Source: a virus. From it: a stretch of DNA of 64,000 bases. Below, piece by piece: positions 21,575-63,963 of this stretch. The DNA lies in the UHGV virus genome UHGV-0178594; one strand, given 5' to 3'. The notes beneath the pieces were generated by a model. The model searched no databases. It saw only the letters and a program-made list of their open reading frames with translations, and was not told where the DNA came from. A program made the position numbers and the translations under genes. Numbering within the stretch: position 1 is the stretch's first letter; the number at the start of each line of letters is the position of its first letter.

Positions 21575-21815
21575 ACACCTCCTTTTTCTTAAATCTTCTC
21601 CACTTTGTGATTTTCACTCTTCAGATTTCTTACTTCTCATATTTGTCTCTGATTTGTCTCAAAAGGGTATCATGGGTACATCATGTATCATCTAAGTCTC
21701 TTCTTTGTCTCTCTTACGTCTCTAGTTTGATGCTTTTTACGCTATCTAACTTCTGGTCTTATTTTGTTTTCTCATATAAAATTCAATTCTTTCTCAAATG
21801 TGTCTCAGAAGTGGA
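21575..21815. promoter_or_regulatory. parC-like centromere/promoter: about six TGTCTC-type short repeats upstream of parM
   Basis: TTTGTCTCTGA, TTTGTCTCAAA, TAAGTCTCTTC, TTTGTCTCTCT, TACGTCTCTAG, TGTGTCTCAGA read directly. Confidence 0.45.
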
Positions 21816-21820
21816 GCAAT

Positions 21821-22780
21821 ATGATGCGCATTTTTATCGACGATGGTTCTACCAATATCAAAATGCTGTGGGAACAGGACGGGGAAACTCGAACCCATAT
21901 CTGTCCGAACAGTTTTAAACGTGGATGGTCCGCCACATTTGGCGCAGGAAAGCCGTTTAACTACATCATTGATGACGAAAAATATTCATATGACTTGATC
22001 TCGCCGGATGTGCTGCCGACGAATAACGTTGAATGGCAATACAGCCCGCTTAATGTGCTTGCTGTTCATCATGCCCTGCTTACAAGTGGCATTGAGCCTC
22101 AAGAAGTGGAAATAGTTGTCACGTTGCCACTGGCAGAGTTTTATGACGACGACGCACAATACAACATGAAAAATATTGAGCGGAAAAAGGCCAGCCTGAT
22201 GCGACCAGTCACCCTTAACAAAGGTCAGGTTTTTACTATCAAAAAAGTGACTGTGCGCCCGGAGTCAATACCCGCAGGGATCGGTCTGTGCGACAGCCTT
22301 GTGCCAGCGCATTCTGTGCTTATTGTTGATCTTGGTGGGACTACTCTGGATGTGTCGATGGTCGCCGGGCAAATGACCGCCGTTTCTCGCGTATTTGGCG
22401 ATTCTAATCTCGGCGTTTCGCTGGTAACTAAAGAGGTCAGACAGGCACTTGCAAAAGCGAATACCGAAACCTCTAATTATAATGTCGATCAATTAATCAT
22501 TAATCGTGATGATGAGGATTATTTGACCGACAATATTAACGATCCGTCTGCTATTGATGATGTTAAGAAAGCCATTTCGTCAAGCATAGAACGACTCCGT
22601 ACACGCGTACTGGATGTGATCAGTGATTTCAAAGGATACACGCATGTTATGGTCATTGGTGGCGGCGCGCCGCTTGTTGCTGATGCTATCCGTGAGCAGG
22701 TAAACATTCGTGACGATAGGTTTTTCGTTGCTGATGATCCACAACTTGCTCTTGTCTATGGTCTAAAATCTATCGGTTGA
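21821..22780 (+). CDS. parM: Actin-like plasmid segregation ATPase
   Basis: MMRIFIDDGSTNIKMLW.. with ..LAVHHALLTSG.., ..IVDLGGTTLD.., ..GYTHVMVIGGGA.. closely matching remembered R1 ParM/StbA; start taken at ATG 21821 after GGAG. Confidence 0.85.
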   Translation: MMRIFIDDGSTNIKMLWEQDGETRTHICPNSFKRGWSATFGAGKPFNYIIDDEKYSYDLISPDVLPTNNVEWQYSPLNVLAVHHALLTSGIEPQEVEIVVTLPLAEFYDDDAQYNMKNIERKKASLMRPVTLNKGQVFTIKKVTVRPESIPAGIGLCDSLVPAHSVLIVDLGGTTLDVSMVAGQMTAVSRVFGDSNLGVSLVTKEVRQALAKANTETSNYNVDQLIINRDDEDYLTDNINDPSAIDDVKKAISSSIERLRTRVLDVISDFKGYTHVMVIGGGAPLVADAIREQVNIRDDRFFVADDPQLALVYGLKSIG

Positions 22781-23197: not shown

Positions 23198-23225
23198 ATA
23201 CTGTTATGGTTCTAATTTGGTGTTC

Positions 23226-23290: not shown

Positions 23291-23441
23291 CGTGTTAAAC
23301 AGGATGCAACAGAGGGTAAATTTAGAGTGTTTAGTGTTATACTTTTGCAAAGCATAGTGACTCCACTATAGAGCCAAAACCGCATCAATAAGGCTTCTGT
23401 TTGGAACCAGTTTGATACCAAAATAACACCGAGGAACGGAT

Positions 23442-24083
23442 ATGATTATATTGGTAGTCAGCCAAAAAGGTGGCTGTGGAAAATCAACCACAAGCGTAAA
23501 CATCTGTGCGGAGCTTGCCCGCGAAAATAAGGATGTAGTGTTACTAGATGCAGACAAGCAAGGAACAGCTGCCCGCTGGGCAGCTGACCGTAACACGGCA
23601 GAGGTTTCTCCTGTAATTCATTGTGTCCAGAAGTTTGGTAATATTCGAGAAACACTTCTCGATCTGGATAAGCGTTATGAATTTGTAGTTGTTGATACAG
23701 CCGGGCGCGATAGCAAAGAGATGCGTACAGGCATAACCGCTGCAGATATTGTGTTGGTCCCATTTAGACCATCTCAACCAGATTTAGACACGCTGGCACA
23801 CTTTGTTGAAGTGTTTGAAGAGGCTTTGGACCTGATGCCTAATCCTAGCATTAAGGCGTTCGCAGTCTTAACAATGGCCCCATCCAATCCGGTTGTGAAT
23901 GAAACCAATGAGGCCAAAGAGTACCTGGCTGAATATCCGCAACTGAAGTTGCTGAAAACCATCATTCGTGATCGTAAGGTTTACCGCGATTGCATGGCTG
24001 AAGGGAAGGGCGTTGTTGAGATGGACAACGGGAAAGCTAAAGGTGAAATCCAGATGTTGGTTAAGGAGTTATTAAGTGATTAA
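23442..24083 (+). CDS. Small Walker-type (ParA/ParF/MinD-family) partition ATPase
   Basis: N-terminal deviant Walker A VSQKGGCGKSTTS, ..VVLLDADKQG.., ..VVVDTAG.. Confidence 0.8.
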   Translation: MIILVVSQKGGCGKSTTSVNICAELARENKDVVLLDADKQGTAARWAADRNTAEVSPVIHCVQKFGNIRETLLDLDKRYEFVVVDTAGRDSKEMRTGITAADIVLVPFRPSQPDLDTLAHFVEVFEEALDLMPNPSIKAFAVLTMAPSNPVVNETNEAKEYLAEYPQLKLLKTIIRDRKVYRDCMAEGKGVVEMDNGKAKGEIQMLVKELLSD

Positions 24084-24363
24084 GCCTCGTAAATCGGTAA
24101 AAGCCCCCGAAGTAAAAGACCCCGATCTTGAACGCCGAATTGAGGATTTTGCCAGTAAGGCTGATTTGGTGCCGGGTGAGCAACCAGAAGACAACAAAGT
24201 GCTCGATAAGGACGCCCCACGTGATTTTAAATCCATTCGTGTTGGCTTCAATGAATACGAGTACCAGGTACTTGATGCGTTAAGCAAAAAGCATAATCGC
24301 AGCAAATTGAATATGATCCGCCATGCTATCCTCATGCTTGCAGAGTCTGAGGATACAAAATGA
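24076..24363 (+). CDS. ParG-like small RHH partner protein
   Basis: 95-aa ORF overlapping the ParA stop; C-terminal ..SKLNMIRHAILMLAES.. ribbon-helix-helix-like. Confidence 0.45.
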   Translation: MIKPRKSVKAPEVKDPDLERRIEDFASKADLVPGEQPEDNKVLDKDAPRDFKSIRVGFNEYEYQVLDALSKKHNRSKLNMIRHAILMLAESEDTK

Positions 24364-24372
24364 CGCCGGAAT

Positions 24373-24444
24373 AACACCGTTTTGGTTCCATGTGGTGTTT
24401 TGATACTACCTTGATGCCTTTTTAGTACCAGAATGGTGTTATTA
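24373..24444. repeat. Centromere-like repeats downstream of the ParA/RHH pair
   Basis: AACACCGTTTTGGTTCC (inverted) and TTTTAGTACCAGAATGGTGTTATTA (direct) relative to the upstream set. Confidence 0.35.
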
Positions 24445-24497
24445 GTGTACCGTAATGGCGTTTATTTGATGTTATAAAGCCCCATATGGGGCTTTTC

Positions 24498-26912
24498 TTA
24501 ATTGAGCGTGGCTATAATGTCGTTAGCTATCATTCGGGTTGATGCTTTACAGGATACAGAGCGACGGGATGGCATAGGATACACCTTGAAGCCATTGCCA
24601 ACGTAAAGTTCGCGAATGTTAGGCGCACCACTGTTTGTTATCACAATTTTCGCTCCGCGTCTGTGGGCATCCACCAGCAGTGACACCAGCCGTTGTTGAT
24701 CTTCAAACCTAAAGCTATGCCCTGAGTAATTTGTAAATCCGGTAGTGTCGGGCAATGGTTCATAGGGGGGATCGCAGAAAATCACATCATCATTCCCTGC
24801 AGCCTCAATTACACCAGCAAAATCGCCGGACACAAATTCCGAATACTTTGAAATATCGTCAGCCAGGAACGCCTCCATTTCCGCGAGAGGGAAGTGGGGG
24901 GATTTCTGCTTTCCATATCCGACGTTGAACTCTCCTTTACGGTTATAGCGAGTGACGCCATTAAAACAATGACGATTGAGATACAGGAACGCCGCTGCAT
25001 GGTGAAGGGAATCATAAGCACCATTGTTGAATGCATTGCGAACATTCAAAAATGCATCAGCAGAGTTGTAATCCTGAAAAAAACGATATGCCAGTGTGAT
25101 AAGAGAATGCCCTTCACGCTGCAATGTCTGATAGAAGTTAATCAGGTCACCGTTAATATCATTAAGCAGGTTGTGGCGAAAACCTGCATTCGTAAATACG
25201 GAACCGCCACCAACGAATGGTTCTATTAACCGCTTGCCGTGTGGCAGATGCTCAAGCACTGTAGGCAACCCTGAGAATTTACCGCCTACCCATTTGAATA
25301 TTGGGCGCTCATATTCATCCGGAGTCCGGAGTTTTCTTGTGTAGGTAATGGTATTTATTGTTTTTTGCTGTTTATCCGCCACGGTCGCAAGAATGCGACA
25401 CCCAATCCATTGCATAACAGGAACTGCCATGCTGTTGCCGATCGCTTTGTAACGCGGTCCGTCAGCAGCGAGCATCGCGGCCTCTTCTTCGCTTAAATCT
25501 GGATAGTGATTGCGAAGATATGCCAGTTCATCTGAATTAACTTTTTTACGCTTTTCCGTCGGGATCAACGTATGCCCATCAGGAAAACCTTGCAGCCTTT
25601 CACATTCGACAGGGGTAAGACGGCGGACAGCTACTTCTGCGTTTCTTACTTCATAGCAAACAGCTGTTGGATTTTTAGCCATTAGAGATGGTGAAGTATT
25701 CTTAGTTGCAGCATGTTGTGTACCGCTCATACGCTCAGGAAAAGCCAATGTAACAAGATGCTCATGGCTTTCTTGCTCACGTGCCCGCAATGTACCATGC
25801 CCTTCTGACCAAAAACCTGCTCCTGTGCTGCTAAAAACGGCAAGGTCAGTGGCATCTTTAAAATCTCTTGCCTTTACTGTCGATGCGGTTTCATCGTCAA
25901 TATATTCCCCAAATGCTGCCATCCTGAAAGCGTTTACGGCTTTCGTCGATTTCATACCGGGTGGCATGTCAGCGTGTAGGCATGGATTTAGGCTTTCGCC
26001 ACTGATTGCAGCGCCATTTGCAATAATGGCGGAAGCGATTTCCTTCTTTTTTCGGCTCGGCGCAATATTCCGGCGCACGCCTTCGAACTCAAAAAGTACC
26101 GTTGCGGGATCGAGGTCTGTTCGAGCACTTGCGACAACAAACACGCGTCGGCGTCGTTGCGCCACTCCGAAGTATTGGGCATCAAGGATTCTCCAGGCCA
26201 CTTTTCGCTGCGGTCCATAAATACAACCACACTGCGGCCACTTTGGAGCATGGCAACCGGTTTTGACATCCCACCGCCAGAACGAGTTACTTTTTCCTGA
26301 TTCAGGTCGATCACCTGGTTCGAATGGCGCATCTTCTCCAGCCAATCCGGCAAGGAAACATCCGAAGGCGTTATCTGCCGATGACAGGACTCCTGGGACA
26401 TTTTCCCAGACGATAACTGTCGGTTTGAGGAAGGACTCAGACCGTTTGTCGTCAATTGCATTTGCAAGCTCCACATACTTCAAAGTTAGCGCGCCGCGTT
26501 CATCATCAAGCCCACCACGTAAGCCCGCGATACTGAATGCCTGACAAGGGGTTCCTCCGACGAGGACATCCGGGGCTTCAATTTTTCCAGCCCGGACCTT
26601 CTTAGCAAGTTTTGTCATGTCGCCAAGGTTGGTAACATGAGGCCAGTGGTGCGCAAGAACGGCAGACGGAAAAGGCTCAATTTCAGCAAACCAAGCCGGA
26701 CGCATACCCAACGGTTCCCAGGCAATGCTTGCGGCTTCAATTCCACTGCAAACCGAACCATATCGAAGATTAATGCTTTGCTTCACCGCCAATGGCCTCC
26801 ACCAGCGAGCTAAACATCGCGGATAATTCGCTTGTGAACAGAATGAAGTCAGCATCAAATCGCTGGGCAACATCTTCACGGTCGATGTCATCGTTCTGGT
26901 CATAGAGATCAT
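24498..26912 (-). CDS. dmt: Bifunctional DNA methyltransferase: N-terminal C5-cytosine MTase fused to C-terminal Dam-like N6-adenine MTase
   Basis: C5 motifs ..YGSVCSGIEAA.., ..GGTPCQAFSIAG.., ..VIVWENVPG..; Dam motifs ..FKWVGGKF.., ..FLYLNRHCFNG.., ..FCDPPY..; 5' end uncertain (143-bp overlap with rdgC as listed). Confidence 0.8.
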   Translation of the reverse strand: MISMTRTMTSTVKMLPSDLMLTSFCSQANYPRCLARWWRPLAVKQSINLRYGSVCSGIEAASIAWEPLGMRPAWFAEIEPFPSAVLAHHWPHVTNLGDMTKLAKKVRAGKIEAPDVLVGGTPCQAFSIAGLRGGLDDERGALTLKYVELANAIDDKRSESFLKPTVIVWENVPGVLSSADNAFGCFLAGLAGEDAPFEPGDRPESGKSNSFWRWDVKTGCHAPKWPQCGCIYGPQRKVAWRILDAQYFGVAQRRRRVFVVASARTDLDPATVLFEFEGVRRNIAPSRKKKEIASAIIANGAAISGESLNPCLHADMPPGMKSTKAVNAFRMAAFGEYIDDETASTVKARDFKDATDLAVFSSTGAGFWSEGHGTLRAREQESHEHLVTLAFPERMSGTQHAATKNTSPSLMAKNPTAVCYEVRNAEVAVRRLTPVECERLQGFPDGHTLIPTEKRKKVNSDELAYLRNHYPDLSEEEAAMLAADGPRYKAIGNSMAVPVMQWIGCRILATVADKQQKTINTITYTRKLRTPDEYERPIFKWVGGKFSGLPTVLEHLPHGKRLIEPFVGGGSVFTNAGFRHNLLNDINGDLINFYQTLQREGHSLITLAYRFFQDYNSADAFLNVRNAFNNGAYDSLHHAAAFLYLNRHCFNGVTRYNRKGEFNVGYGKQKSPHFPLAEMEAFLADDISKYSEFVSGDFAGVIEAAGNDDVIFCDPPYEPLPDTTGFTNYSGHSFRFEDQQRLVSLLVDAHRRGAKIVITNSGAPNIRELYVGNGFKVYPMPSRRSVSCKASTRMIANDIIATLN

Positions 26913-27675
26913 CGCAAAACGTCAGTGCTTTGATGCTCATGTCATCGTTTAACCTGAAGGTCGCGCGGTCCTGCCAGTTGATTGCAACTGTTGTTGCAAC
27001 TTTTCCGGCTTCAATATGAGTCATTATTTCCTCTGACTGTAGGTCTACTTTCTTGCAACGAACTGCGCCGCCGTCATCGAACAGAGATTTCAATATGGCT
27101 TCTTCGCCTGCTTTAAAGCCTTGAGGAAATGTTGACTTGAACCATTCGGTCATAGTCATTTCGAGCGGTTCTATCGGCGTGAATGGAATCACTGGCAGGC
27201 TGCCAAGTGATTTACGTAAGAGCGCCAGCATTTCTTCAGCTTTTCTGGCGCTGGAAGCTTCTACGAAGACCAGATAGTTGTCGCGATCAATAAGGATTCG
27301 CGACAATGATTTGCGAGTGAATGCGCGAGGCAACAAAGAGTGGAGAACTTCATCCTTCAGGGTGTTTTTTTCCGACTTCTTCAGCTTACGAGATTGCTCA
27401 TTTTCGAGCTTTTCCACTTTTTTCTGCACTTCCTCCTTAATGACATGAGAGGGCAGGAGCTTAATTTCTCGCTGTTGCTGGAGAAGTAGAAAACCGTGGT
27501 ATTCATGGATCAGGTTGTCAGCCAGAACCGGCACCCATCCGACTTTTGCCATTTCTTGTGATGCGCATGGAGTGAATGTGAATTGGCTTAAGGCATCACT
27601 AACGGTGGTTGAGTCCAGTTTAATTTCGCGGGCAAGGCGATAGACGTATATGTTTTTAAAGGCGACTAATCTCAT
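26770..27675 (-). CDS. rdgC: Recombination-associated protein RdgC homologue
   Basis: Near-collinear similarity to remembered E. coli RdgC (..FKNIYVYRL.., ..LLPRAFTR.., ..LRKSLGSLPV.., ..DREDVAQRFDADFIL..); start set at internal ATG 27675. Confidence 0.85.
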   Translation of the reverse strand: MRLVAFKNIYVYRLAREIKLDSTTVSDALSQFTFTPCASQEMAKVGWVPVLADNLIHEYHGFLLLQQQREIKLLPSHVIKEEVQKKVEKLENEQSRKLKKSEKNTLKDEVLHSLLPRAFTRKSLSRILIDRDNYLVFVEASSARKAEEMLALLRKSLGSLPVIPFTPIEPLEMTMTEWFKSTFPQGFKAGEEAILKSLFDDGGAVRCKKVDLQSEEIMTHIEAGKVATTVAINWQDRATFRLNDDMSIKALTFCDDLYDQNDDIDREDVAQRFDADFILFTSELSAMFSSLVEAIGGEAKH

Positions 27676-27688
27676 GTTTCGCAAAACT

Positions 27689-27720
27689 GTGTTAGAAAAT
27701 AAAACTCAATTATCTAACAC
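27689..27720. promoter_or_regulatory. Operator-like palindrome GTGTTAGAAAAT..TATCTAACAC immediately upstream of rdgC-dmt
   Basis: Member of the recurring motif family; 14 bp from the rdgC start. Confidence 0.45.
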
Positions 27721-27734
27721 AGTTATGTATTTTG

Positions 27735-28412
27735 CTATCCCTTCACAAAGGAGAAATTGCTCGCTGTTGCTTTTAGCGCGCCACCAGCTTTCAGGGCTAT
27801 ATCACCATCAGCGGCGACGGTTACATTGCTGCCTTTTACATTAACGTCTCCATCTGAGGATACATTGGTTTTGCTGCTTGATTTGACGTTAACTTCACCT
27901 CCAGCATTAAGCACTATATTCGCTGGGCCAATTATGTAAATCTGGCCGGATTCGTTCATCCCTATCCTTGATCCTGCGGCGGTGTTTGCTATTTCATAGC
28001 CACCGCCAGCCGTTCTGACCTCAAGGATATTGTTTCGGTGAATAACAAAATCTTCAGTCGCCGAAAACTGGGGGCGGGCAGGGGCACCATCAACTTCTTC
28101 TGGCGACCATCCACTTCCTTGTCCGGAGGCTTCCGGAGGCACATTTGGTACGCCTCCTGGGGCATCCTGCGCCGCACCAACGATTAAAGGTCGGCGCGTG
28201 TCTATCCTGCCTTTAGCATCCAGATAAGGAAATTCGACCCAGACTAAATCGCCGCTGACTGTAGGTGTAAAGGCGTTACCGATAGGCATTTGATACTCTG
28301 CCCATGGGAGGTCTTCATCCGGTACACCGTTCCAGTCAGGCAGTATGCGGACCTGCGCTCGCATAAGTCCGGCAGGGTGTTTGGTCCCTACGATTTGCGC
28401 TCTGCGTTTCAC
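27735..28412 (-). CDS. Baseplate spike/hub protein (gpV / gp5-like) candidate
   Basis: 225 aa; N-terminal OB-fold-like ..PTVSGDLVWVEFPYLD.. then G/N/V-rich beta-helix-like C-terminus. Confidence 0.4.
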   Translation of the reverse strand: MKRRAQIVGTKHPAGLMRAQVRILPDWNGVPDEDLPWAEYQMPIGNAFTPTVSGDLVWVEFPYLDAKGRIDTRRPLIVGAAQDAPGGVPNVPPEASGQGSGWSPEEVDGAPARPQFSATEDFVIHRNNILEVRTAGGGYEIANTAAGSRIGMNESGQIYIIGPANIVLNAGGEVNVKSSSKTNVSSDGDVNVKGSNVTVAADGDIALKAGGALKATASNFSFVKG

Positions 28413-29389
28413 TGGTTGGGTACTCCTAATATCATTCGTGTTGTATAGCCGATCCGGTCCTCAAAATGGGCTACGTTTTTCACCAACAGCTTACGAGGCA
28501 ACGATTCGTCCAGCTTATTTTCCTGGTCGTAACGATACACGAGGATCTCAATAACCATTCCCGGCGTGATGTCGGGATTACCCGCGACCTCAATATCCAT
28601 TTTGGGTACGAGCGACAATTGCATATTGCGCAGAGTTTCCATATCCGGATCGGATATATAGCGTATTGGAAGTGAGCTATCGCCATATTCGACATAGCCT
28701 TCAGTCATTGAATAGCCGGTAAATCGATACTGAGTATTTGCCGTAACGGCATACTCTTGCTGTATAAGCCTCATTTTTGAAATCGTGTATTCCGCCCTGG
28801 GGTTGTTCCCTTCATAGGTGAATGATGGTTTGGCTTTCATAAGGTCAGCTAATGTATAAAAGTTAAACTGACCACGGCAGGCCCAGCATAAAGCGCCTTT
28901 ATCGCGGGCCATTTCAGATAGCATTTTGGAGGGTTTTTCCCCGGCGGAAAGATGGTACGTACAGCTTCGTTTCAATGCGCTGGAGGCGATTTTCAGTGTA
29001 CCGGTATACGTCTTGAAAATGGTATCAGGCGTTTTATTTGTATGCAGGTTAGCCCGTATGGCGGGGATCTTAAATATCCGAACGTCTTCACTGACTGCAA
29101 TGACCGTGATGACATCACCAGCCAGCACCGCAGATGTTACGAAAAAAGTTGTTTTAAACGTGCCTGAATTGCCTTGTGGATCTCCCATCTCTGCAACCAG
29201 TGCTGCGCCGTATTTTGTTTTCCAGTCATCAATTATGGTGCCGGTAATGTCGTGAATTTCCAGTTTCAGCAATGGTGCACGCAGGTTTGCCTTTTCCACA
29301 TATACGGAAGTGAATATCCACTCCCTGGGTACTTTGTTTCCGTTGATGGTAACGGACTGTAGAAAGTATTGCTGTAGCTCCTGGGACAT
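28409..29389 (-). CDS. Baseplate/tail protein (unassigned)
   Basis: 326-aa ORF in the same operon. Confidence 0.3.
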   Translation of the reverse strand: MSQELQQYFLQSVTINGNKVPREWIFTSVYVEKANLRAPLLKLEIHDITGTIIDDWKTKYGAALVAEMGDPQGNSGTFKTTFFVTSAVLAGDVITVIAVSEDVRIFKIPAIRANLHTNKTPDTIFKTYTGTLKIASSALKRSCTYHLSAGEKPSKMLSEMARDKGALCWACRGQFNFYTLADLMKAKPSFTYEGNNPRAEYTISKMRLIQQEYAVTANTQYRFTGYSMTEGYVEYGDSSLPIRYISDPDMETLRNMQLSLVPKMDIEVAGNPDITPGMVIEILVYRYDQENKLDESLPRKLLVKNVAHFEDRIGYTTRMILGVPNQ

Positions 29390-38874: not shown

Positions 38875-39195
38875 TTTGACACCCCCAGCGCGAGTAAAGA
38901 ATGCAGATTATCGCGTGAGTGGCGGACAACGAGTGATGGGAAAAGACAGTAGCTGTTCATAGTGTAGTGACTCCTTGCTTTCGGAGCCGCCATCGACTGT
39001 TCCACGGTCTGGTGGCGGCGCAATAAAGGTTGGAACACCGTGAGTCAACGGGGGCTTTTCAGCCACCTATATTGCACCGCCATTGGTATGGCGGCGGCAA
39101 TCATACGAAAAACCAAACGGTTTGTCTCAAAAAGTTGACCGGTGTACCAATCGGTTGTGAATGTACAACGGCGAATCTCACAATTCAACTTAAAA

Positions 39196-39218
39196 TGTTA
39201 GAAAATTAATTTATCAAT
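39196..39218. promoter_or_regulatory. Operator-like element TGTTAGAAAATTAATTTATCAAT overlapping the ref stop codon
   Basis: Nearly identical to the element overlapping the dre stop codon at 58095. Confidence 0.4.
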
Positions 39219-39825: not shown

Positions 39826-39857
39826 GTGTTAGAAAATCAAAATTGATTTTCTAACAC
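39826..39857. promoter_or_regulatory. Near-perfect 32-bp palindrome GTGTTAGAAAATCAAAATTGATTTTCTAACAC directly upstream of ref
   Basis: 15-bp arms are exact reverse complements; 3 bp from the ref start. Confidence 0.55.
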
Positions 39858-44744: not shown

Positions 44745-44775
44745 GTGTTAGAATATTGATTTTAATTTTCTAACA
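44745..44775. promoter_or_regulatory. Operator-like palindrome GTGTTAGAATATTGATTTTAATTTTCTAACA upstream of the 44818 gene
   Basis: Member of the recurring motif family. Confidence 0.45.
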
Positions 44776-44817
44776 TATTATTTTACCGCTCGGAACAAAA
44801 CAGAGTCGGTATACATT

Positions 44818-45813
44818 ATGAGTGCAATAATCACACCTCATTTCGTAAACGGAGCTGGTGTGGCTGTCTTTCCGGTAGACAAGCCCACCAGCAACTACAT
44901 TGGCGCAGGTCGCCGTTTCATTATCTCTCCACTTCCGCGCGAACAGGCTGAAAACACGCCAGATGGCGTAGTGGATCTGAACTATTCGCTGGTTGCCAAC
45001 CAGTCTCTGAAAGCATTTTTTCAAAGCGAGCGCGTATTTAACGCATTAGGCGGTGAAGATTCGCTTGTTCATTGGGTAAGTTCCAATATCCACGATTGCC
45101 AGGCGCACGATAAGCGCGATTGCAGCCACCAGCTAACCACTCATTTCTATAACGGCTCTGCCGTTCGCCTGTGCTGGAAGCATGATGCGGAATACATGAT
45201 GAAGGGGTACGGCAAGCTGGATGACCAGTTATCCCTAAATCGTGCCAACTGGGTTATGAACTGGGCTGCGAGCGAGTTAAAACTACCGCCAGAACGCGAT
45301 CTGAGCATGGTTGAACTCACTTTTTGGGCCATTCGCCGGAATCTGAAAGACGAGCTGCCAGATGAAGCCGGTCGCATTGCATTTTGTCAGCCAAAACAGG
45401 AAATCCCTACCGGCACACTGAAAGAATCGGATATCACCTGGGAGCACAGCACCCGTGAGCTGGTGGACATAACCGCAGAGCAGATCGTCAACCTGTCTGT
45501 AGATGAGGATTCCGGCCTGCTGTATATGCGCCGACCAAAAGCGGTTCTCGGTAAAAGCCCGGCTTATCTCCGGTTTGTGATTTCTCGTCCGTGCATCGGA
45601 TGCGGAGGCAAAGTTAATCACCCGTTCATGTACCGCGCCCGCTCGTTAAACGAACACGATCGCTGGGCCGTTCCTCTTTGCGATGAATGCGCCAGAAGCG
45701 CAGAAAACGATGTCCGGGCATGGGAAAAAGCACATGGCATACGCCTTTACGTAGCCGCCAACCAGCTTTTCGACTTCGCCATCGAGCGCGGAGTGATCAC
45801 GTTCAATAACTGA
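44818..45813 (+). CDS. Hypothetical protein with C-terminal Cys cluster
   Basis: 331 aa; ..RPCIGCGGKVNH..VPLCDEC.. Confidence 0.35.
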   Translation: MSAIITPHFVNGAGVAVFPVDKPTSNYIGAGRRFIISPLPREQAENTPDGVVDLNYSLVANQSLKAFFQSERVFNALGGEDSLVHWVSSNIHDCQAHDKRDCSHQLTTHFYNGSAVRLCWKHDAEYMMKGYGKLDDQLSLNRANWVMNWAASELKLPPERDLSMVELTFWAIRRNLKDELPDEAGRIAFCQPKQEIPTGTLKESDITWEHSTRELVDITAEQIVNLSVDEDSGLLYMRRPKAVLGKSPAYLRFVISRPCIGCGGKVNHPFMYRARSLNEHDRWAVPLCDECARSAENDVRAWEKAHGIRLYVAANQLFDFAIERGVITFNN

Positions 45814-58094: not shown

Positions 58095-58117
58095 TGTTAG
58101 AAAATTAATTTATGAAT
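58095..58117. promoter_or_regulatory. Operator-like element TGTTAGAAAATTAATTTATGAAT overlapping the dre stop codon
   Basis: 19 of 23 positions identical, in one run, to the element at 39196. Confidence 0.4.
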
Positions 58118-59138
58118 CCATCAGGCGACTATTTGCACCAACGGATGCCCCGCTACGGCGCAAATATCGCATAAGTGTTTCGGGCTTTTTCCATGTGCCT
58201 TCCTGCATGATCTCGACCATTGACACCTGTTTCTCAGCCATATCAATTGCCGCACCAACACGCGCACTATGGCCTGTCCACGTCCGGTATCTTCCTTTGT
58301 TCGGCGTGGCATCTCGTTTGTTCAGCAACCCCCAGGCATCGCTGAATATTTTCTCCATTGCAGGTGCAGTAAGGGGAGTTGTCGTGATTCTGGCCTTATT
58401 ACTGCGGTGTATTGGCGGGAATAGCACCGCGTCCGGATGTTGACGAAGTCCGGACACCTCCAGCCAGTCGTTCAGTACGGCGGTAGTGCAACGAGAAAGC
58501 ACCTTATCAAGTCCGGCGGCGGTCGTGATGGTCTTCGTGTGCGAAATATGCAGCGTTACAGTGTCACCTGTTTGGTCCAGATCTCCGACGCGGATGCGCG
58601 AGATTTCTGACATACGCATCAGGGTATTGTATGCCACGAAGAGAAACGCCCGATTGCGCAGGTCCACCAGCCGCTCGGAACGGGACAGCAATACGTCGAG
58701 CAATTTCAGATCATCCCACCGCAACGGTATAGCCTGGCCTGTTCGCTCGCCTTTTTCCGTTGCCGCTTCGCGCCGGATGCGCCGCATGGCCAGAGACACA
58801 CTTTTATCGTCCGACAGCGGCGGGAGGCCACATTGCGAAAGCAGCATGTTAAGCATGGCATAGTGCTTATCAATGGTGGTCGAAGCCAGATCGGCCTCAT
58901 GCAACTGGAGAAGATACTCGCGGGCCATTTCCGACGTAATCGGGAACCAGGGGCGCTGGCGCGAGTTACACCACCGCGCCCAGGAATGAAACACCAGACG
59001 GAGATCACGAAGTGTATTTGGGGCATAAGCTCCCTGGTCGTTCATGAACTGCATAAAGTTTTTTGCAGCTTCCTGGTATTCGGTGCCAATATCGCGCAGA
59101 AAACCACCAGAACCGCCGGAGATAACTAGTTCACCCAT
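58110..59138 (-). CDS. dre: Cre-family tyrosine recombinase (Dre-type)
   Basis: Collinear with remembered Cre (..WFP..DVR.YLL.LQ..GLA..TI..H...LNML.., ..RNLAF..AYNTL.R..EI.RIRV.D.., ..WSGHSARVGAA.DMA..GVS..EIMQ.G.W..); adjacent exact rox site. Confidence 0.85.
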   Translation of the reverse strand: MGELVISGGSGGFLRDIGTEYQEAAKNFMQFMNDQGAYAPNTLRDLRLVFHSWARWCNSRQRPWFPITSEMAREYLLQLHEADLASTTIDKHYAMLNMLLSQCGLPPLSDDKSVSLAMRRIRREAATEKGERTGQAIPLRWDDLKLLDVLLSRSERLVDLRNRAFLFVAYNTLMRMSEISRIRVGDLDQTGDTVTLHISHTKTITTAAGLDKVLSRCTTAVLNDWLEVSGLRQHPDAVLFPPIHRSNKARITTTPLTAPAMEKIFSDAWGLLNKRDATPNKGRYRTWTGHSARVGAAIDMAEKQVSMVEIMQEGTWKKPETLMRYLRRSGASVGANSRLMDS

Positions 59139-59403: not shown

Positions 59404-59506
59404 ACATTTTCTAATAGGAACAATCAAAAAAAAGCGGTTTTATCCTTTACTCACCTTGTTATTCAGCATAAATTTGTCACAGGACTTTTATGTTAGAAAA
59501 CTAAAT
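59404..59506. promoter_or_regulatory. Two operator-like sites (ACATTTTCTAATAGG at 59404; ATGTTAGAAAACTAAAT at 59490) upstream of the c1-position gene
   Basis: Half-site variants of the recurring motif. Confidence 0.4.
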
Positions 59507-59518
59507 CGAGTAGGAATA

Positions 59519-60556
59519 ATGAGTAAGAAGTCGATCGAGAATGAGTACAAACGGTTCCTGCAAACCGCTGAACGGTGGAAAGAGCTGGTGGTCGCAAACT
59601 CTGTTTTCCATGATACCAGTTATGTTGGCGAGGAATTTCGCCATGTTGCATTAACACATGATCCGGCTGTATTAGAAGAAGCTGAAAAATGCATAGCCGA
59701 ATGGAAAGCCTTTGTTGATCTGTGTCGCAAGGATGATGACAAAGCCTCAAACATTGTTGAGTCGGTTTATTTACCGATCCCATTCATTGTTGAGGATACT
59801 AATCAGAGTACGCACATCGTTATGCAAAGCGCAACCACAACGAGAACATTTACGCGCGAAGACCTGCTGAAAAAATACGATAAAACTATAAAGAAAAGCA
59901 TGAAAAACAGGATATTTTCACAGGTTGTCGGTGCGCTTGAAGAAGAACGCAGATTCTTCGCCGCTGAACGTGAGGGCGAGGTATACCGCGCAAGAAAAGA
60001 AGGTTATACCGATGTGGTGATTACCACCAATATTGAGGGCAACAATGGACTTTCACGCTTCAGAGTGGGTACGCACGGTGCGCTGATCTTTGCAAAAAAA
60101 GCAAACACAGAGATTCCCGTTGTTAACAACGTTGGTGAGCGCCGCACCCTTACCATTTACACTGGCATTAAACCGCTTCCGTGCGGACTTCTCGGCGAAT
60201 TTGACCTTTATCGGGTTCGTGATCTGGAAAAGCAGCAGCCAAGCTACGTCGTGAAGTCATATATCCTGAGAAACATTGATATCCGCAATCAGAGTTTAAA
60301 AAACAAATCAGATAAAATGCTGGCCGAAGCCGATCCAGCCATACACCAGATCGTAAGCCGGAAAATTCAAGAGGCTAAAGATGCAATGGCAAGGCTGGAT
60401 AAAATGGACCTGGAACTACTGGAAGTTATGATTGCCTCCGGCGATGACCTGACAGGCATCCGCCTTACTGAAGCCAGGAAAAAATACGGTAAAAGCGTTG
60501 AAGAACGCTATGGGTACACATTCACACAAACGATGTACGCGGCAAAACTCTGGTAA
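59519..60556 (+). CDS. Immunity repressor candidate by position (c1 locus between rox and pacB); family not recognised
   Basis: 345 aa from ATG 59519 (track lists a TTG-initiated 59456 start); convergent with pacB as c1 is in P1; longer than P1 C1, so identity unproven. Confidence 0.35.
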   Translation: MSKKSIENEYKRFLQTAERWKELVVANSVFHDTSYVGEEFRHVALTHDPAVLEEAEKCIAEWKAFVDLCRKDDDKASNIVESVYLPIPFIVEDTNQSTHIVMQSATTTRTFTREDLLKKYDKTIKKSMKNRIFSQVVGALEEERRFFAAEREGEVYRARKEGYTDVVITTNIEGNNGLSRFRVGTHGALIFAKKANTEIPVVNNVGERRTLTIYTGIKPLPCGLLGEFDLYRVRDLEKQQPSYVVKSYILRNIDIRNQSLKNKSDKMLAEADPAIHQIVSRKIQEAKDAMARLDKMDLELLEVMIASGDDLTGIRLTEARKKYGKSVEERYGYTFTQTMYAAKLW

Positions 60557-60593: not shown

Positions 60594-62102
60594 TTAAATG
60601 TCAATATCAGGAATATCCACTTCTGCCAACACCTGATCGCGGAATGTTGCGAGTTCTGCGCCAATGTCTTCATTAGCAGGCACGTAATCCACCAGCATAG
60701 TGAAGCAGTAGGTATCCCATCTGTCCGGTGACTTGATGTTTAACTTCTGCCGCATGTGCTCCTTGCGCATCATCGCTACCTTCCCTTCTTCGTTAAGCAT
60801 ATACGGGATTTTTGATGCCTGATCTGCGGTTTTGGGGTCACTATCGATACGCATACGCCCGGATTTAATGGCATCCCCTGCCATAATATTGGCGTAAGCA
60901 CGCTGATTGACAAAGCGTTCTCTGTCTCTTAGCGCAAACATAGGCTTACCCCAACGGATGCGAACGGGATTAGCACCACGGCGGACAAGCTGCGCACACG
61001 TATCTGAACCAAAGCCATCAGCATCCACAGCAATGGTGATGTTCGGGTATTTATCAGGAGTGCATTCGTTATAGATAAAGTCGGCAAAAGCCAACGGGTC
61101 CATAGTGCCTGGCATCTCCAGTATCTTAAAGTTCACAACGCGTCGTTTCTCACGATAACCGGATACTTTGCATATATTGAGCACCGATTTATCGCGACCA
61201 TTACCGACGTCAGCGGTCGCTACCCAGCCCCAATCTTTCTCCAGCAACACTTTACGCCGTGCGGCGCGGTCGCACTCATCACGACCAAGCAAATACCCGT
61301 TAATTGCACGCGGGAACTGGCCCAGCACCTTAACCATGTACTCCAGCGAATCCCTGCCGCCGTACTCCAGCAATTTCTCACGAATAAAGCTCGGTTCAAC
61401 GAATGGTGATTCTTCAGAGTTAAGGACTATTGCCGTCCAGACACCTTCCGGATTGCCTTCTGCCTTTGCCCTTGAATGGTGAGATTCATAAAAGTAACCG
61501 CTTGGACGCGTAGGCTGGGAAAGCATGAGCATACGGTTATCTTTCTGCGTTAACGCCCCCGTCATGACGTTAATCGCCTTATCGGATATGCCCGATGCTT
61601 CATCAAGAATTAGCAGTAAATGCTCCGCGTGCTCCCCCGCCAGTGCCTCTTCGTTACCGAGTCGATAACCTTTACAGAGCACTTCCCATATCCCTTTACG
61701 GGAACGCTCATAAAACATGGTGTCAGACAGGACAAAATAGGTCTGTAACCAGCCGTGGCGCTTAACAGCATTCGCCCAAAACTGTTTCACGTATTTGAAT
61801 ACGCCTGTTTTTACCTGGCCTATTTTGTTCGCAACAATAATGACGCGGGCGTCGGGGAACAGGATCATAAAAATTAGTAGCAACATCGCGGTAAGGGACG
61901 ACTTACCCGTTCCGTGTCCGGACGTAACGGTCGTCCTGCTTCCCGTCTCCTGCACTGACTGAATGATCTGCTGCTGCTGGTGGGAGGGGAACATCCCAAA
62001 AATATCGACAACCGCCTGGGTAAAGTTGTATCGATACCTGATAACCATATCGCGCCAACGTGGATCACTGGTGACGCACTTAATCTTACGACCACCAGCC
62101 AT
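60594..62102 (-). CDS. Terminase large subunit (PacB-like)
   Basis: P-loop ..TSGHGTGKSS.. near the N-terminus, 502 aa, immediately downstream of the small-subunit gene. Confidence 0.6.
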   Translation of the reverse strand: MAGGRKIKCVTSDPRWRDMVIRYRYNFTQAVVDIFGMFPSHQQQQIIQSVQETGSRTTVTSGHGTGKSSLTAMLLLIFMILFPDARVIIVANKIGQVKTGVFKYVKQFWANAVKRHGWLQTYFVLSDTMFYERSRKGIWEVLCKGYRLGNEEALAGEHAEHLLLILDEASGISDKAINVMTGALTQKDNRMLMLSQPTRPSGYFYESHHSRAKAEGNPEGVWTAIVLNSEESPFVEPSFIREKLLEYGGRDSLEYMVKVLGQFPRAINGYLLGRDECDRAARRKVLLEKDWGWVATADVGNGRDKSVLNICKVSGYREKRRVVNFKILEMPGTMDPLAFADFIYNECTPDKYPNITIAVDADGFGSDTCAQLVRRGANPVRIRWGKPMFALRDRERFVNQRAYANIMAGDAIKSGRMRIDSDPKTADQASKIPYMLNEEGKVAMMRKEHMRQKLNIKSPDRWDTYCFTMLVDYVPANEDIGAELATFRDQVLAEVDIPDIDI

Positions 62103-63466
62103 TAGTCATCCTCCGGCTGGTCTATCGCAATCTCGTCATCTACAGCATCAAAACCGGTATCCCCCGCGTCATAATCACCGTAGATATCAGCCGTGGCGTA
62201 AGGGTCTATATTCAGGTCTTCATCATTGGCCTCAAATTCACCGGCTTTACGTTCTCCGTTCCGGTCGTAATCCCCCATCCCAAGCCTATCAACGATTTTC
62301 GCTACTTCAGCCCGGCGTTGTGCAAGCCATTGTGGGAGTCCAGCTTGTTGCTCGGCAAACTGCTTCGCCTCTTTATCCAGTTGCTCATCATCAACATCGT
62401 TAACGTCAGAAACCGGAGGCTCCAGAAGTGAGATCGCTTTTGCCGCTCGTGCCGCCAGGATAGCCGGGACACTGACGCCCTGCCGCTCGATATATTCAGC
62501 AACACCTATATCATCCAGCTCCTCGCGCTCACGCATACGTATAGCGGCGGCGATAACCCTGGCGGCGCGTGCGTCAGCGCCAATGCGATACTCAATCTCC
62601 TTGCCACGCTGCTCGGCTTGTAGGCGGGCAATCGCCAGTTTTTCTCTGGCCTCAGCCTCCCTGAATGCCTGCTGACGCGCGCCCTGCGCAAGTTTTTCAT
62701 CCCCCTGGCGTAGCTTCTGCTCGTTCTGATAGATGGCTGCCAGCCTGGTGATAAAGTCATTCATGTAGTAGGCCGCATCGCTGATCAGTCCGAGAAGACG
62801 CTGCCCTGGGTGCATCCCCTCTGGCTGTGTATCACCGAGGGCGTCAATCTCTTCCTGTAGTCGCTCCGCTTCCTGGTCAACGATAGCCTGATACTGAATT
62901 GCTCGTTCCTGCGCCATCTGAATCGCAAGTCGTAAATGTTCAGTCGCGCCGTTCTTCATCATCTCACGGGCGACGTTGGTGGCAGGCAAAGTGGTGCTTT
63001 GAGCTGATGAATCAGGGATCATTTGCAATGATCCCTTGTTTCGTTGGGCTTTATCGCTGCTTTTAGGGATCATTTCTCCCATTTCATCACAAAATGATCC
63101 CTTCACATCCTTGTGTATCTTGTTGTTATTACTTGGCTTTTCTTTGTGATCCGCATTTTGTTTTTGCGGCATGGCGCGGAACCGTCCACCAGCCAAAGAT
63201 TTGTCAGTTTTTGTAAATTCTGTGCTTTTATTAGCCTTTTTTTGCTCTTTTTTTGAGCCGGTGGCGCTGCTTTTTGCGCGCTGTTTTGTACTTTTCCCGG
63301 TAGCCTTAGCTTTCGCCTTAACCTCATTTTTTTTCATATTGAGATGCTTTCTGGCGGTGTTAAAGCTGAGGTCATGCTGCTCGCAATATTCTTTTATGGT
63401 GATCCCGGTTTCTTCTCTTAACTCCAGGAACTTAGCTCGATGCGCTTCCCAGTTAATTAACGTCAT
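62102..63466 (-). CDS. Terminase small subunit / pac-recognition protein (PacA-like)
   Basis: N-terminal HTH-like ..ITIKEYCEQHDLSFNTARKHL.., basic linker, GATC-rich pac-like cluster inside the 5' part of the gene. Confidence 0.5.
   Translation of the reverse strand: MTLINWEAHRAKFLELREETGITIKEYCEQHDLSFNTARKHLNMKKNEVKAKAKATGKSTKQRAKSSATGSKKEQKKANKSTEFTKTDKSLAGGRFRAMPQKQNADHKEKPSNNNKIHKDVKGSFCDEMGEMIPKSSDKAQRNKGSLQMIPDSSAQSTTLPATNVAREMMKNGATEHLRLAIQMAQERAIQYQAIVDQEAERLQEEIDALGDTQPEGMHPGQRLLGLISDAAYYMNDFITRLAAIYQNEQKLRQGDEKLAQGARQQAFREAEAREKLAIARLQAEQRGKEIEYRIGADARAARVIAAAIRMREREELDDIGVAEYIERQGVSVPAILAARAAKAISLLEPPVSDVNDVDDEQLDKEAKQFAEQQAGLPQWLAQRRAEVAKIVDRLGMGDYDRNGERKAGEFEANDEDLNIDPYATADIYGDYDAGDTGFDAVDDEIAIDQPEDD
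63014..63102. other. pac-like cluster: four GGGATCATT / AATGATCCC elements with GATC sites at 63017, 63030, 63068, 63096
   Basis: Read directly; resembles the Dam-sensitive hexamer organisation of the P1 pac site. Confidence 0.4.
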
Positions 63467-63855
63467 AGGGAAGCCTCACGTTTTTTCACAGCGGCGTTCC
63501 ATAGCTGGTTAGTCATCGCCACCAACTGACGCTGCTCCTTTCGTAATTGAGCTTCTATCTTTCGGTTGGTGTTTTTCACCAACAGCCGACCGAATTCAGG
63601 AGTGCGCCCGCGCACCTTGAACTGGTATCCATTCAGGCCATGTAACCAATATTTCCGGGGGTATACGCGGTCGTCTATTTCGCAAATGGCACGACTGGAA
63701 CGAACAAAAAAACGTATGATGTTATTTACGTTTACGCGCGACACATGAAGGTGAGGATATTGTGCTTTTGCACGGCTGGTGATTTCGGTGACCGTCAGAT
63801 AGCAGTTAGCCCTGATCATGATATCCGCTATTTCGGCGCTACTGATTTGCTCCAT
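63463..63855 (-). CDS. Hypothetical protein upstream of pacA (position of P1 lpa)
   Basis: 130-aa ORF; positional inference only. Confidence 0.25.
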   Translation of the reverse strand: MEQISSAEIADIMIRANCYLTVTEITSRAKAQYPHLHVSRVNVNNIIRFFVRSSRAICEIDDRVYPRKYWLHGLNGYQFKVRGRTPEFGRLLVKNTNRKIEAQLRKEQRQLVAMTNQLWNAAVKKREASL

Positions 63856-63934
63856 TTATCCCCCGGATAGAAAAAGACCGAGGGGATGATAATCAGCTTG
63901 TTAATACTGAGAAGACTGTCAAAAACACGATCTA

Positions 63935-63963
63935 TTAGAAAATTAATATCAATTTGCTAACAC
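63935..63963. promoter_or_regulatory. Operator-like site TTAGAAAATTAATATCAATTTGCTAACAC upstream of the pac operon
   Basis: Member of the recurring motif family. Confidence 0.4.

What the first reader, a model, noticed from the sequence alone, without database searches (positions are those of the whole stretch)
24498..27720. Fused Dcm-like/Dam-like methyltransferase co-transcribed with rdgC behind an operator
One ORF carries complete C5-cytosine motifs (FxGxG-like, PCQ, ENV) followed by a complete Dam-like module (DPPY). It sits directly downstream of a phage-encoded RdgC homologue, with an operator-like palindrome 14 bp upstream of rdgC. Self-methylation plus an RdgC homologue in one repressor-controlled unit suggests an anti-restriction and recombination-control function on entry.
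Basis: partly seen in the sequence, partly recalled or inferred. Interest (0 to 1): 0.5.

Follow-up and report, generated by a model that had tools for sequence, protein, structure and literature searches.

The report
P1-type hrdC–dmt methylase operon
This is the already known phage P1 "hrdC–dmt" gene pair (an RdgC-like protein followed by one enzyme that joins a cytosine and an adenine DNA methylase), here in a D6-like plasmid prophage of Escherichia; it is ordinary, apart from a repeated palindrome that looks like this phage group's repressor binding site.

Summary
One uninterrupted ORF on the minus strand carries a full C5-cytosine methyltransferase domain followed by a full Dam-type domain. 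It lies directly after an rdgC homologue, and a palindrome sits just upstream of rdgC.

It is not new. The window is a D6-like/P1-like phage-plasmid, and the pair is the homologue of phage P1 hrdC–dmt. The P1 record annotates dmt as a bifunctional methyltransferase in an operon controlled by C1 operator Odmt (Op68). A protein listed at 100% identity over the full 762 aa is already in NCBI. The likely start is GTG 26786, which overlaps rdgC by 17 nt; the 804-aa ORF is a longest-ORF artefact.

The palindrome is one of four copies of GTGTTAGAAAAT-N8-ATTTTCTAACAC (0.00 expected by chance). Copies or half-sites lie in front of the homologues of P1's C1-controlled genes ref, lpa and c1. It does not match the P1 operator sequence, and the local C1 is only a distant relative of P1 C1. 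Its outer stem also covaries, so a hairpin function is likely too.

The cytosine module is a mosaic: 99.4% identical to P1, inside a genome otherwise 50–70% identical, and the nearest relative carries a different target-recognition region.

"Anti-restriction on entry" is only partly supported. The documented role of P1 Dmt is GATC methylation for pac cutting.

The parts
24498..26786 (-). dmt: 762-aa bifunctional DNA methyltransferase (GTG start). Homologue of phage P1 Dmt.
   Evidence: 85% aa identity to P1 Dmt. An NCBI protein (P0001) is listed at 100% identity over the full length.
25347..26786 (-). C5-cytosine methyltransferase module (aa 1 to about 480) with motifs I, IV, VI, VIII, IX and X.
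   Evidence: PF00145. TIGR00675 scores 118.8 against a cut-off of 100.65. Motif-by-motif alignment to M.HhaI. Motif coordinates.
25626..26066 (-). Variable target-recognition region between motifs VIII and IX (aa 241-387). This is the P1-type allele.
   Evidence: 99% aa identity to P1. The nearest relative, CP056699, has no nucleotide homology at 25629-26051. P7 and AP027688 carry other versions.
25471..26549 (-). Block nearly identical to phage P1 dmt: 7 mismatches in 1079 nt.
   Evidence: The flanks fall to 50-70% identity.
24510..25307 (-). Dam-type (D12 class) N6-adenine methyltransferase module, with EPFVGGGSVF at 25194-25223 and DPPY at 24756-24776.
   Evidence: PF02086. TIGR00571 scores 221.5 against a cut-off of 114.85. 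Full-length alignment to E. coli Dam 2g1p, E 5e-51.
26770..27675 (-). rdgC (homologue of P1 hrdC), 301 aa.
   Evidence: 52% identity to P1 HrdC, 77% to the D6 homologue, and E 1.5e-104 to E. coli RdgC 2owl.
26770..26800 (-). rdgC/dmt junction: GGAGG at 26796-26800, GTG start at 26784-26786, and a 17-nt overlap with the rdgC stop (probable translational coupling).
   Evidence: The same 17-nt overlap is annotated in CP056699, CP074704, CP067430 and AP027688.
27685..27724 (.). Bipartite palindrome (half-sites 27689-27700 and 27709-27720) between the stop of the baseplate gene 5 homologue and the rdgC ATG. Candidate operator of the C1-like repressor, embedded in a longer hairpin.
24476..24495 (.). 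GC-rich hairpin directly after the dmt stop, between convergent genes. Candidate bidirectional terminator.
   Evidence: Fold of -13.6 kcal/mol, z -4.8.
39826..39857 (.). Second copy of the bipartite motif (perfect), between the ref homologue (minus strand) and a divergent plus-strand operon.
   Evidence: P1 has Oref at the equivalent place.
44745..44776 (.). Third copy of the bipartite motif, upstream of the pdcB homologue (44818..45813).
63932..63963 (.). Fourth copy of the bipartite motif, upstream of the lpa homologue (63463..63855, minus strand).
   Evidence: P1 has Olpa (Op94) at the equivalent place.
59490..59501 (+). Single half-site starting 29 nt (ending 17 nt) upstream of the ATG of the C1-like repressor gene.
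   Evidence: The same site sits in front of D6 orf1, annotated 'similar to P1 gene C1'.
39195..39206 (+). Single half-site at the 3' end of the ref homologue.
   Evidence: P1 has Omat overlapping the ref stop.
59519..60556 (+). C1-like prophage repressor (345 aa), the presumed protein that binds the motif.
   Evidence: Its D6 counterpart is 21% identical to P1 C1.

Best explanation
The region is the hrdC(rdgC)-dmt transcription unit of a D6-like/P1-like plasmid prophage. It is homologous to the uhr-hrdC-dmt operon of phage P1.

Shown:
- rdgC and dmt are read from the minus strand.
- They overlap by 17 nt.
- A hairpin follows the dmt stop.
- Dmt is one polypeptide with an N-terminal C5-cytosine methyltransferase and a C-terminal Dam-family methyltransferase.

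Inferred for the Dam half: it methylates GATC, as in P1. It serves phage functions that depend on GATC methylation, above all cutting of the packaging site. A cluster of five GATC sites lies in the pacA homologue, at the position where P1 has pac.

Inferred for the C5 half: it is an active methylase whose exchangeable target-recognition region sets the specificity. It methylates replicating phage DNA, so progeny arrive pre-modified in the next host.

Inferred for the 32-bp bipartite motif in front of rdgC: it binds this phage's C1-like repressor. The unit is therefore silent in the lysogen and switched on after infection or induction, like Odmt/Op68 in P1. The same sequence, extended by covarying outer pairs, can form a hairpin in transcripts reading through from the late baseplate operon. 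This probably attenuates or insulates that read-through.

Inferred for the RdgC homologue: it binds dsDNA and damps RecA action during phage replication, by analogy with E. coli RdgC. This step is the least supported.
For: Identity of the locus:
- Megablast finds P1, P7, RCS47 and D6, with dmt and hrdC annotated under the match.
- The P1 record lists uhr-hrdC-dmt with promoter Pdmt and C1 operator Odmt (Op68). It describes dmt as a bifunctional methyltransferase acting on GATC and 'perhaps' on C5 cytosine.
- The P7 record says its Op(dam) operator is predicted to control upf64.0, hrdC and dam.
- The window is collinear with D6.

Protein:
- Both Pfam domains are found.
- Both NCBIfam family cut-offs are passed.
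- All C5 motifs align to M.HhaI.
- The Dam half aligns end to end with E. coli Dam.
- dN/dS is 0.10-0.18 in the C5 catalytic part and 0.03-0.07 in the Dam part against D6-like relatives.
- Relatives carry an intein exactly at the catalytic PCQ cysteine.
- All 120 listed homologues carry both domains.

Operator:
- The bipartite motif occurs 4 times against 0.00 expected.
- The half-site occurs 18 times against 6.2 expected.
- Sites lie in front of rdgC, ref, pdcB, lpa and c1, and at the 3' end of ref.
- P1 has C1 operators in front of its hrdC-dmt operon, ref, lpa and c1, and at the 3' end of ref.
- In six elements the arms are invariant while the spacer and flanks vary.

Hairpin: 4 pairs keep pairing through changes on both sides. 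Folding z-scores are -5.8 to -7.0.

pac: five GATC within about 130 bp inside pacA, compared with P1 pac. A review states that P1 dmt is needed for pac methylation in dam- hosts.
Against: - No methylation, binding or transcript data exist for this element.
- Motif I of the C5 domain is CSGIE rather than FxGxG. C5 activity has not been demonstrated even for P1, whose annotation says 'perhaps'.
- The motif does not match the P1 C1 operator consensus: 0 hits at up to 3 mismatches. The local repressor scores only 24 bits on the P1 C1 model, so the repressor-motif link rests on position alone.
- No convincing sigma-70 promoter was found at the palindrome, and rdgC has no clear Shine-Dalgarno sequence in this window.
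- Three of the four bipartite sites lie between co-directional genes, where a terminator is also possible.
- P1 hrdC and dmt are dispensable for lytic growth in a dam+ host.
Confidence: 0.85

Rival explanations
1. The palindrome is only an RNA hairpin: an intrinsic terminator or 3'-end stabiliser of the late baseplate operon (genes 7-24-6-5). It is not a protein-binding operator. rdgC-dmt would then be expressed by partial read-through late in infection.
For: - The stem is stable and non-random (z -3.7 to -7.0).
- Four outer pairs keep pairing through double changes among six elements.
- In this window the stem is followed by TTTTG.
- Three of the four bipartite sites lie between co-directional genes.
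Against: - The conserved part is the inner 12-nt half-sites, which also occur singly where no hairpin can form. Examples are in front of c1 and at the ref 3' end.
- One bipartite copy lies between divergently transcribed genes.
- D6-like relatives have no T-run after the stem.
- The terminator scan did not call it.
- Site positions match P1's C1 operators.
Confidence: 0.1
2. The motif is the late-promoter element of this phage group, recognised by the Lpa homologue. rdgC-dmt would then be a late unit rather than a repressor-controlled one.
For: - The half-site contains a -10-like TAGAWAAT.
- P7 has a predicted late promoter inside its dam gene.
- Dam methylation of pac is needed late.
Against: - The P1 late-promoter -22 box is AAGTTACTT-like, which is unrelated to this motif.
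- The sites precede c1, lpa, ref and pdcB, not the structural operons.
- A site in front of lpa itself fits repression, as with P1 Op94, not Lpa activation.
Confidence: 0.04
3. The C5 module is a catalytically dead remnant, and the protein works only as a Dam methylase, as its database name ('Dam family...') implies.
For: - Motif I deviates (CSGIE).
- No C5 activity is documented. The P1 annotation says 'perhaps'.
- Phage D6 does without this module.
Against: - All catalytic motifs (PCQ, ENV, QxRxR, GN) are intact.
- dN/dS is 0.10-0.18.
- The module is 99.4% identical to P1 against a diverged background, so it spread recently.
- Target-recognition variants are exchanged between otherwise near-identical elements.
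- An intein sits at the catalytic cysteine in relatives.
Confidence: 0.15

Closest known systems
Phage P1 uhr-hrdC-dmt operon with C1 operator Odmt (Op68) (P1 record NC_005856), and the P7 hrdC-dam equivalent
   Same: - Same gene pair in the same order, with overlapping stop and start.
- Same two-domain architecture of Dmt: C5 module first, Dam module second.
- 85% aa identity overall, and 99.4% nt identity over 1079 nt of the C5 module.
- A repressor-type site immediately upstream.
   Different: - There is no uhr gene here. rdgC follows the late baseplate gene 5 homologue on the same strand, instead of diverging from upfC.
- The upstream site is a 32-bp palindrome unrelated in sequence to the 17-bp asymmetric P1 operator.
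- The Dam half and RdgC are only 71% and 52% identical to the P1 proteins.
- dmt overlaps hrdC by 17 nt with a GTG start, against 4 nt in P1.
Phage D6 orf65-orf64-orf63 (hrdC, small methyltransferase, Dam) (NC_050154)
   Same: - Same genome backbone and synteny: ParM/ParA genes, then dam, hrdC, and baseplate genes 5, 6, 24 and 7.
- Same palindrome upstream of hrdC.
- The Dam part is the same lineage (80% aa identity).
   Different: - D6 has two separate genes, and its small methyltransferase is unrelated to the P1-type C5 module.
- D6 also has a glnS gene next to dam that is absent here.
E. coli Dam (2g1p) and DpnII M1 (GATC N6-adenine methyltransferases, D12 class)
   Same: The C-terminal half aligns over the whole length of E. 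coli Dam, with the FxGxG and DPPY motifs (E 5e-51).
   Different: It is fused to another methylase. It scores below the cut-off of the E. coli Dam equivalog model (217 against 441 bits), so it is a family member, not the host enzyme.
Multispecific C5 methyltransferases of Bacillus phages (SPR, phi3T, rho11s): several target-recognition domains in one enzyme (from my own knowledge and review PMC12707154)
   Same: The variable region between motifs VIII and IX comes in exchangeable blocks. One relative (AP027688, 854 aa) carries both the P1-type block and the CP056699-type block.
   Different: There is no sequence relationship. The window's own allele shows only one xPxL-type recognition signature. 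No specificity is known for any Dmt allele.
E. coli RdgC (2owl), a ring-shaped dsDNA-binding inhibitor of RecA (from my own knowledge)
   Same: Full-length homology (E 1.5e-104). It passes the NF001462 equivalog cut-off (375 against 330 bits).
   Different: It is phage-borne and placed in an operon with a methylase. Its function in phage is untested, and the P1 homologue is dispensable.

Membership tests
P1 Dmt family (bifunctional C5/N6A methyltransferase) | N-terminal C5 methyltransferase domain with motifs I, IV (PCQ), VI (ENV), VIII, IX and X | tested here: met
   PF00145 E 1.4e-36. Motif-by-motif alignment to M.HhaI. Motif I is the variant CSGIE, as in P1 and P7.
P1 Dmt family (bifunctional C5/N6A methyltransferase) | C-terminal D12/Dam domain in the same uninterrupted reading frame | tested here: met
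   PF02086 E 3.4e-50. No internal stop. All 120 listed homologues carry both domains.
P1 Dmt family (bifunctional C5/N6A methyltransferase) | Close sequence relationship to P1 Dmt, and position directly after hrdC with overlapping start | tested here: met
   85% aa identity. 17-nt overlap with rdgC. P1 arrangement.
P1 Dmt family (bifunctional C5/N6A methyltransferase) | GATC N6-adenine methylation activity; any C5 activity | not testable with these tools
   Needs methylome data. The P1 annotation itself says 'perhaps' for C5.
Dam family (TIGR00571) | Score above the curated family cut-off, with FxGxG and DPPY motifs | tested here: met
   221.5 bits against 114.85. Motifs at 25194-25223 and 24756-24776.
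E. coli Dam equivalog (NF008152) | Score above the equivalog cut-off | tested here: not met
   217 bits against 441. It is a family member but not the host-type enzyme.
E. coli Dcm (NF007772) | Score above the subfamily cut-off | tested here: not met
   21.5 bits against 710. 'Dcm-like' is correct only as 'C5 methyltransferase superfamily' (TIGR00675, 118.8 against 100.65).
RdgC | Full-length match above the curated cut-off | tested here: met
   PF04381 337 bits. NF001462 375.3 against 330. 2owl E 1.5e-104.
P1-type C1 operator (17-bp ATTGCTCTAATAAATTT) | Match to the operator consensus | tested here: not met
   0 matches with up to 3 mismatches in the whole window. P1 operator sequences read.
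P1-type C1 operator (17-bp ATTGCTCTAATAAATTT) | Location in front of the C1-controlled units (dmt operon, ref, mat side of ref, lpa, c1) | tested here: met
   Motif sites at all five equivalent places, set against the P1 annotation.
P1-type C1 operator (17-bp ATTGCTCTAATAAATTT) | Binding by the C1 repressor and repression of transcription | not testable with these tools
   Needs EMSA or footprinting with the protein encoded at 59519..60556, plus reporter assays.
Intrinsic (rho-independent) terminator | GC-rich stem followed by a T-run | tested here: inconclusive
   The stem is stable and covarying. It is AT-rich, was not called by the scan, and the short T-run is absent in D6-like relatives.
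P1 late promoter (Lpa-dependent) | The -22 box (AAGTTACTT-like) 4-9 nt upstream of a -10 hexamer | tested here: not met
   The P1 boxes read are unrelated to the motif.

The most novel reading that the evidence does not exclude
The cytosine-methylase half of Dmt may be a cassette system under an arms race with host restriction. Its target-recognition region is swapped between P1-like and D6-like phage-plasmids. Here the P1 allele is 99.4% identical at the DNA level in a genome that is otherwise 50-70% identical, while the nearest relative differs only in that 423-nt block. Some relatives stack two blocks, like the multispecific methylases of Bacillus phages. Separately, GTGTTAGAAAAT-N8-ATTTTCTAACAC would be the operator of the D6-type C1 repressor. 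That operator family is not annotated in the D6 record, and I could not check whether it has been described.
Probability: 0.45. Interest if true: 0.4.

Novelty: already known. Interest (0 to 1): 0.2.

Why it matters
As found, it matters little. It re-identifies the P1 hrdC-dmt unit in a common Escherichia phage-plasmid, and the protein is already in the databases, under a name that mentions only the Dam half.

Two by-products could be useful.
- A concrete candidate operator sequence for the D6-like repressor would let the immunity regulon of this widespread plasmid-prophage group be predicted.
- The evidence that the C5 recognition region is exchanged as a cassette makes this family a convenient natural series for mapping C5 specificity. 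It could also test whether phage-plasmids use methylation to cross restriction barriers.

Tried and rejected
- The P1 C1 operator consensus was searched in the window and gave no hit. The palindrome is therefore not a P1-type operator by sequence.
- A first bipartite search used the wrong spacer length (10 instead of 8) and found nothing. It was corrected.
- The late-promoter idea was rejected after reading the P1 -22 boxes.
- The sigma-70 scan gave no promoter at the palindrome. The only good match on the minus strand (27940-27913) lies inside the gene 5 homologue, in a stretch that is not conserved in relatives, so it was not used.
- Rfam found nothing in 24000-28500.
- The P1 genome paper (PMC523184) and the D6 genome paper (PMC5800970) are not held. 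I could not check whether D6 operators were already described there.
- Literature searches for C5 activity of P1 Dmt found no experimental report.
- The site at 18921 has its two arms at a different spacing (28 bp rather than 34 bp), so I counted it as a single half-site.
- No structure prediction was run. Sequence evidence was already decisive.


Full report
**What is in the sequence**

On the minus strand, the longest ORF runs from 26912 to 24498 (804 aa) without a stop. Pfam finds a C5-cytosine methylase domain (PF00145, E 1.4e-36). It is followed by a D12/Dam domain (PF02086, E 3.4e-50).

Alignment to M.HhaI shows every catalytic motif of a C5 enzyme: I, IV (GTPCQ), VI (ENV), VIII (QRRRR), IX and X (GNS). 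The one deviation is motif I, which reads CSGIE instead of FxGxG (coordinates). The C-terminal half aligns over the whole length of E. coli Dam (2g1p, E 5e-51), including EPFVGGGS and DPPY.

Immediately upstream, rdgC (26770..27675, 301 aa) is a full-length RdgC homologue. Pfam gives E 1.2e-100, the E. coli RdgC structure 2owl gives E 1.5e-104, and NF001462 scores 375 against a cut-off of 330.

Between the stop of the preceding gene (27735) and the rdgC ATG lies a palindrome at 27685-27724.

**Start of dmt**

The 143-nt overlap with rdgC comes from taking the first ATG. A GTG at 26786 is preceded by GGAGG at a 9-nt distance. It gives a 762-aa protein that begins MKQSINLRYGS, parallel to P1 Dmt's MKELCYGS.

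PGAP calls a CDS of the same length (2289 nt, 17-nt overlap with rdgC) in three related plasmids, and the same overlap in a fourth. The first NCBI entry in the homologue search (P0001) is listed at 100% identity over the full 762 aa. It is found on 17 contigs of up to 92.8 kb.

**What the locus is**

Megablast against phage records hits P1, P7, RCS47, SJ46 and D6, with dmt and hrdC annotated under the match. The window is collinear with phage D6 over almost its whole length.

It carries the D6-type ParM and ParA genes, baseplate genes 5, 6, 24 and 7, and homologues of ref, cre, c1, pacAB and lpa. The nearest records are about 94-kb Escherichia marmotae plasmids at 97% identity.

The P1 record describes dmt as a bifunctional methyltransferase that methylates GATC and "perhaps" C5 cytosine. 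It places dmt in the unit uhr-hrdC-dmt, behind promoter Pdmt and the C1 operator Odmt, formerly Op68. The P7 record says the same of its Op(dam).

The fused architecture, the pairing with an RdgC homologue and the repressor control are therefore all described for P1. All 120 listed homologues carry both domains.

**The palindrome**

It is not a chance feature. The pattern GTGTTAGAAAAT-N8-ATTTTCTAACAC occurs four times in the window with at most 3 mismatches, against 0.00 expected. The half-site occurs 18 times against 6.2 expected.

The four bipartite copies lie:
- in front of rdgC;
- between the ref homologue and a divergent operon (39826-39857);
- in front of the pdcB homologue (44745-44776);
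- in front of the lpa homologue (63932-63963).

Single half-sites lie just upstream of the ATG of the C1-like repressor gene (59490) and at the 3' end of ref (39195). Others lie downstream of cre (58094) and next to the major capsid gene (18921).

The same sites are present at the same places in D6. P1 has C1 operators at the equivalent positions: Odmt, Oref, Omat (overlapping the ref stop), Olpa and Oc1a-e.

In six D6-like elements, the two arms in front of rdgC are invariant, while the 8-bp centre and the flanks differ.

The motif does not match the P1 operator consensus: 0 hits at up to 3 mismatches. This is expected, because the D6-type C1 is only 21% identical to P1 C1. The window's copy scores 24 bits on the P1 C1 model, whose cut-off is 500. 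The P1 late-promoter box (AAGTTACTT-like) is unrelated to the motif.

I conclude that the motif is most likely the operator of this phage group's C1-like repressor. This is an inference from position and conservation. No binding was tested.

**A second layer at this site**

At the rdgC site alone, the stem continues beyond the shared half-sites. These outer pairs change in a compensatory way between elements: AAC/GTT, ATT/AAT and AAT/ATT, and further out CACC/GGTG. Four pairs show double changes among six sequences.

This points to selection for a hairpin in the transcript coming from the late baseplate genes. It is probably an attenuator or insulator. In D6-like relatives, the 3' side of the stem covers the GGTGAG in front of the rdgC ATG.

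The terminator scan did not call the hairpin, and the T-run is short and not conserved, so this part remains open. No convincing sigma-70 promoter was found at the site. The half-site itself contains a -10-like TAGATAAT.

**Mosaic structure of Dmt**

Identity to P1 is 50-56% across rdgC. It rises to 98-100% in the core of the C5 module and falls to 63-72% in the Dam module. Between 25471 and 26549 there are 7 mismatches in 1079 nt.

The Dam module belongs to the D6 lineage. It is 100% aa identical to CP056699 and 80% to D6 orf63. The nearest relative, CP056699, is 97-100% identical everywhere except 25629-26051. This is the region between motifs VIII and IX that determines target recognition in C5 methylases, and CP056699 has no homology there.

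P7 has a third, short version of this region. AP027688 (854 aa) carries both the P1-type block and the CP056699-type block. D6 itself has an unrelated small methyltransferase and a separate Dam.

dN/dS is 0.10-0.18 in the C5 catalytic part and 0.03-0.07 in the Dam part against D6-like relatives. In some relatives an intein sits exactly at the catalytic cysteine of PCQ. These points argue that the C5 module is functional and that its recognition region is exchanged as a cassette. Neither its activity nor its specificity is known.

**How it most likely works**

Shown:
- one operon-like unit, rdgC-dmt, with overlapping genes and a hairpin after the dmt stop (24476-24495);
- one polypeptide with two intact methylase modules.

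Inferred from P1:
- GATC methylation by the Dam half;
- use of that methylation for pac cutting (review PMC12707154);
- repression in the lysogen through the operator.

In support of the pac inference, five GATC sites in GGGATCAT-type repeats lie at 63020-63150. This is 256-455 nt into the pacA homologue, which is where P1 has its GATC-rich pac.

Inferred from cassette variation: the C5 half pre-modifies progeny DNA against restriction in the next host. A methylase made after entry cannot protect the entering genome, so "anti-restriction on entry" needs this rewording.

The RdgC homologue probably modulates RecA-dependent reactions on replicating phage DNA, by analogy with E. coli RdgC (my own knowledge). 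There is no phage evidence for this. P1 hrdC and dmt scored as non-essential in a CRISPRi screen (PMC10695390).

**Verdict**

- Observation: confirmed.
- Interpretation: partly supported.
- Novelty: already known, as P1 Dmt/HrdC with C1 control, with a protein listed at 100% identity already in NCBI.

The candidate D6-type operator motif and the cassette exchange in the C5 recognition region are modest additions. I could not check them against the D6 genome paper, which is not held.

Noticed in passing
window 63020-63150 (inside the pacA homologue 62102..63466, minus strand): Five GATC sites lie within about 130 bp as GGGATCAT/ATGATCCC repeats. They sit at the same relative position in pacA as the GATC-rich pac site of P1, so this is a likely packaging site regulated by Dam methylation.
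   Followed up: partly
window 59290-59323: A perfect 15-nt inverted repeat, CTAACTTTAAATAAT-GCCA-ATTATTTAAAGTTAG, lies between the cre homologue (58110..59138) and the c1 homologue. It corresponds to the site the D6 record calls rox, the lox equivalent.
   Followed up: no
relatives P0094 (1095 aa) and P0095 (960 aa): Some Dmt relatives carry an intein (Hint plus LAGLIDADG domains) inserted exactly before the catalytic cysteine of motif IV (GGTP|CQAFS). P0094 stands for 3523 member sequences.
   Followed up: partly
window 25629-26051, compared with L004 (CP056699): The otherwise 97-100% identical E. marmotae plasmid has a completely different sequence in this 423-nt block of dmt. The window's block is identical to P1, which indicates a recent swap of the recognition-region cassette.
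   Followed up: yes
L011 (AP027688) 1523-4087: This is an 854-aa Dmt variant whose variable region contains both the P1-type block and the CP056699-type block in tandem. It resembles the multispecific phage C5 methylases.
   Followed up: partly
window 24364-24497, compared with D6 59657-61634: D6 and several related plasmids carry a glutaminyl-tRNA synthetase gene (glnS) between orf61 and dam. It is absent here and in the E. marmotae plasmids.
   Followed up: no
window 21764-24083: Two different partition-type genes lie side by side: a ParM/StbA-like actin-type ATPase (ORF 21764..22780) and a small ParA-like ATPase (23442..24083). D6 has the same arrangement.
   Followed up: no
window 18921-18932, 58094-58105, 59406-59417: These are further single half-sites of the operator-like motif. 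They lie next to the major capsid gene homologue, downstream of cre, and further upstream of c1. Their roles are unclear.
   Followed up: partly
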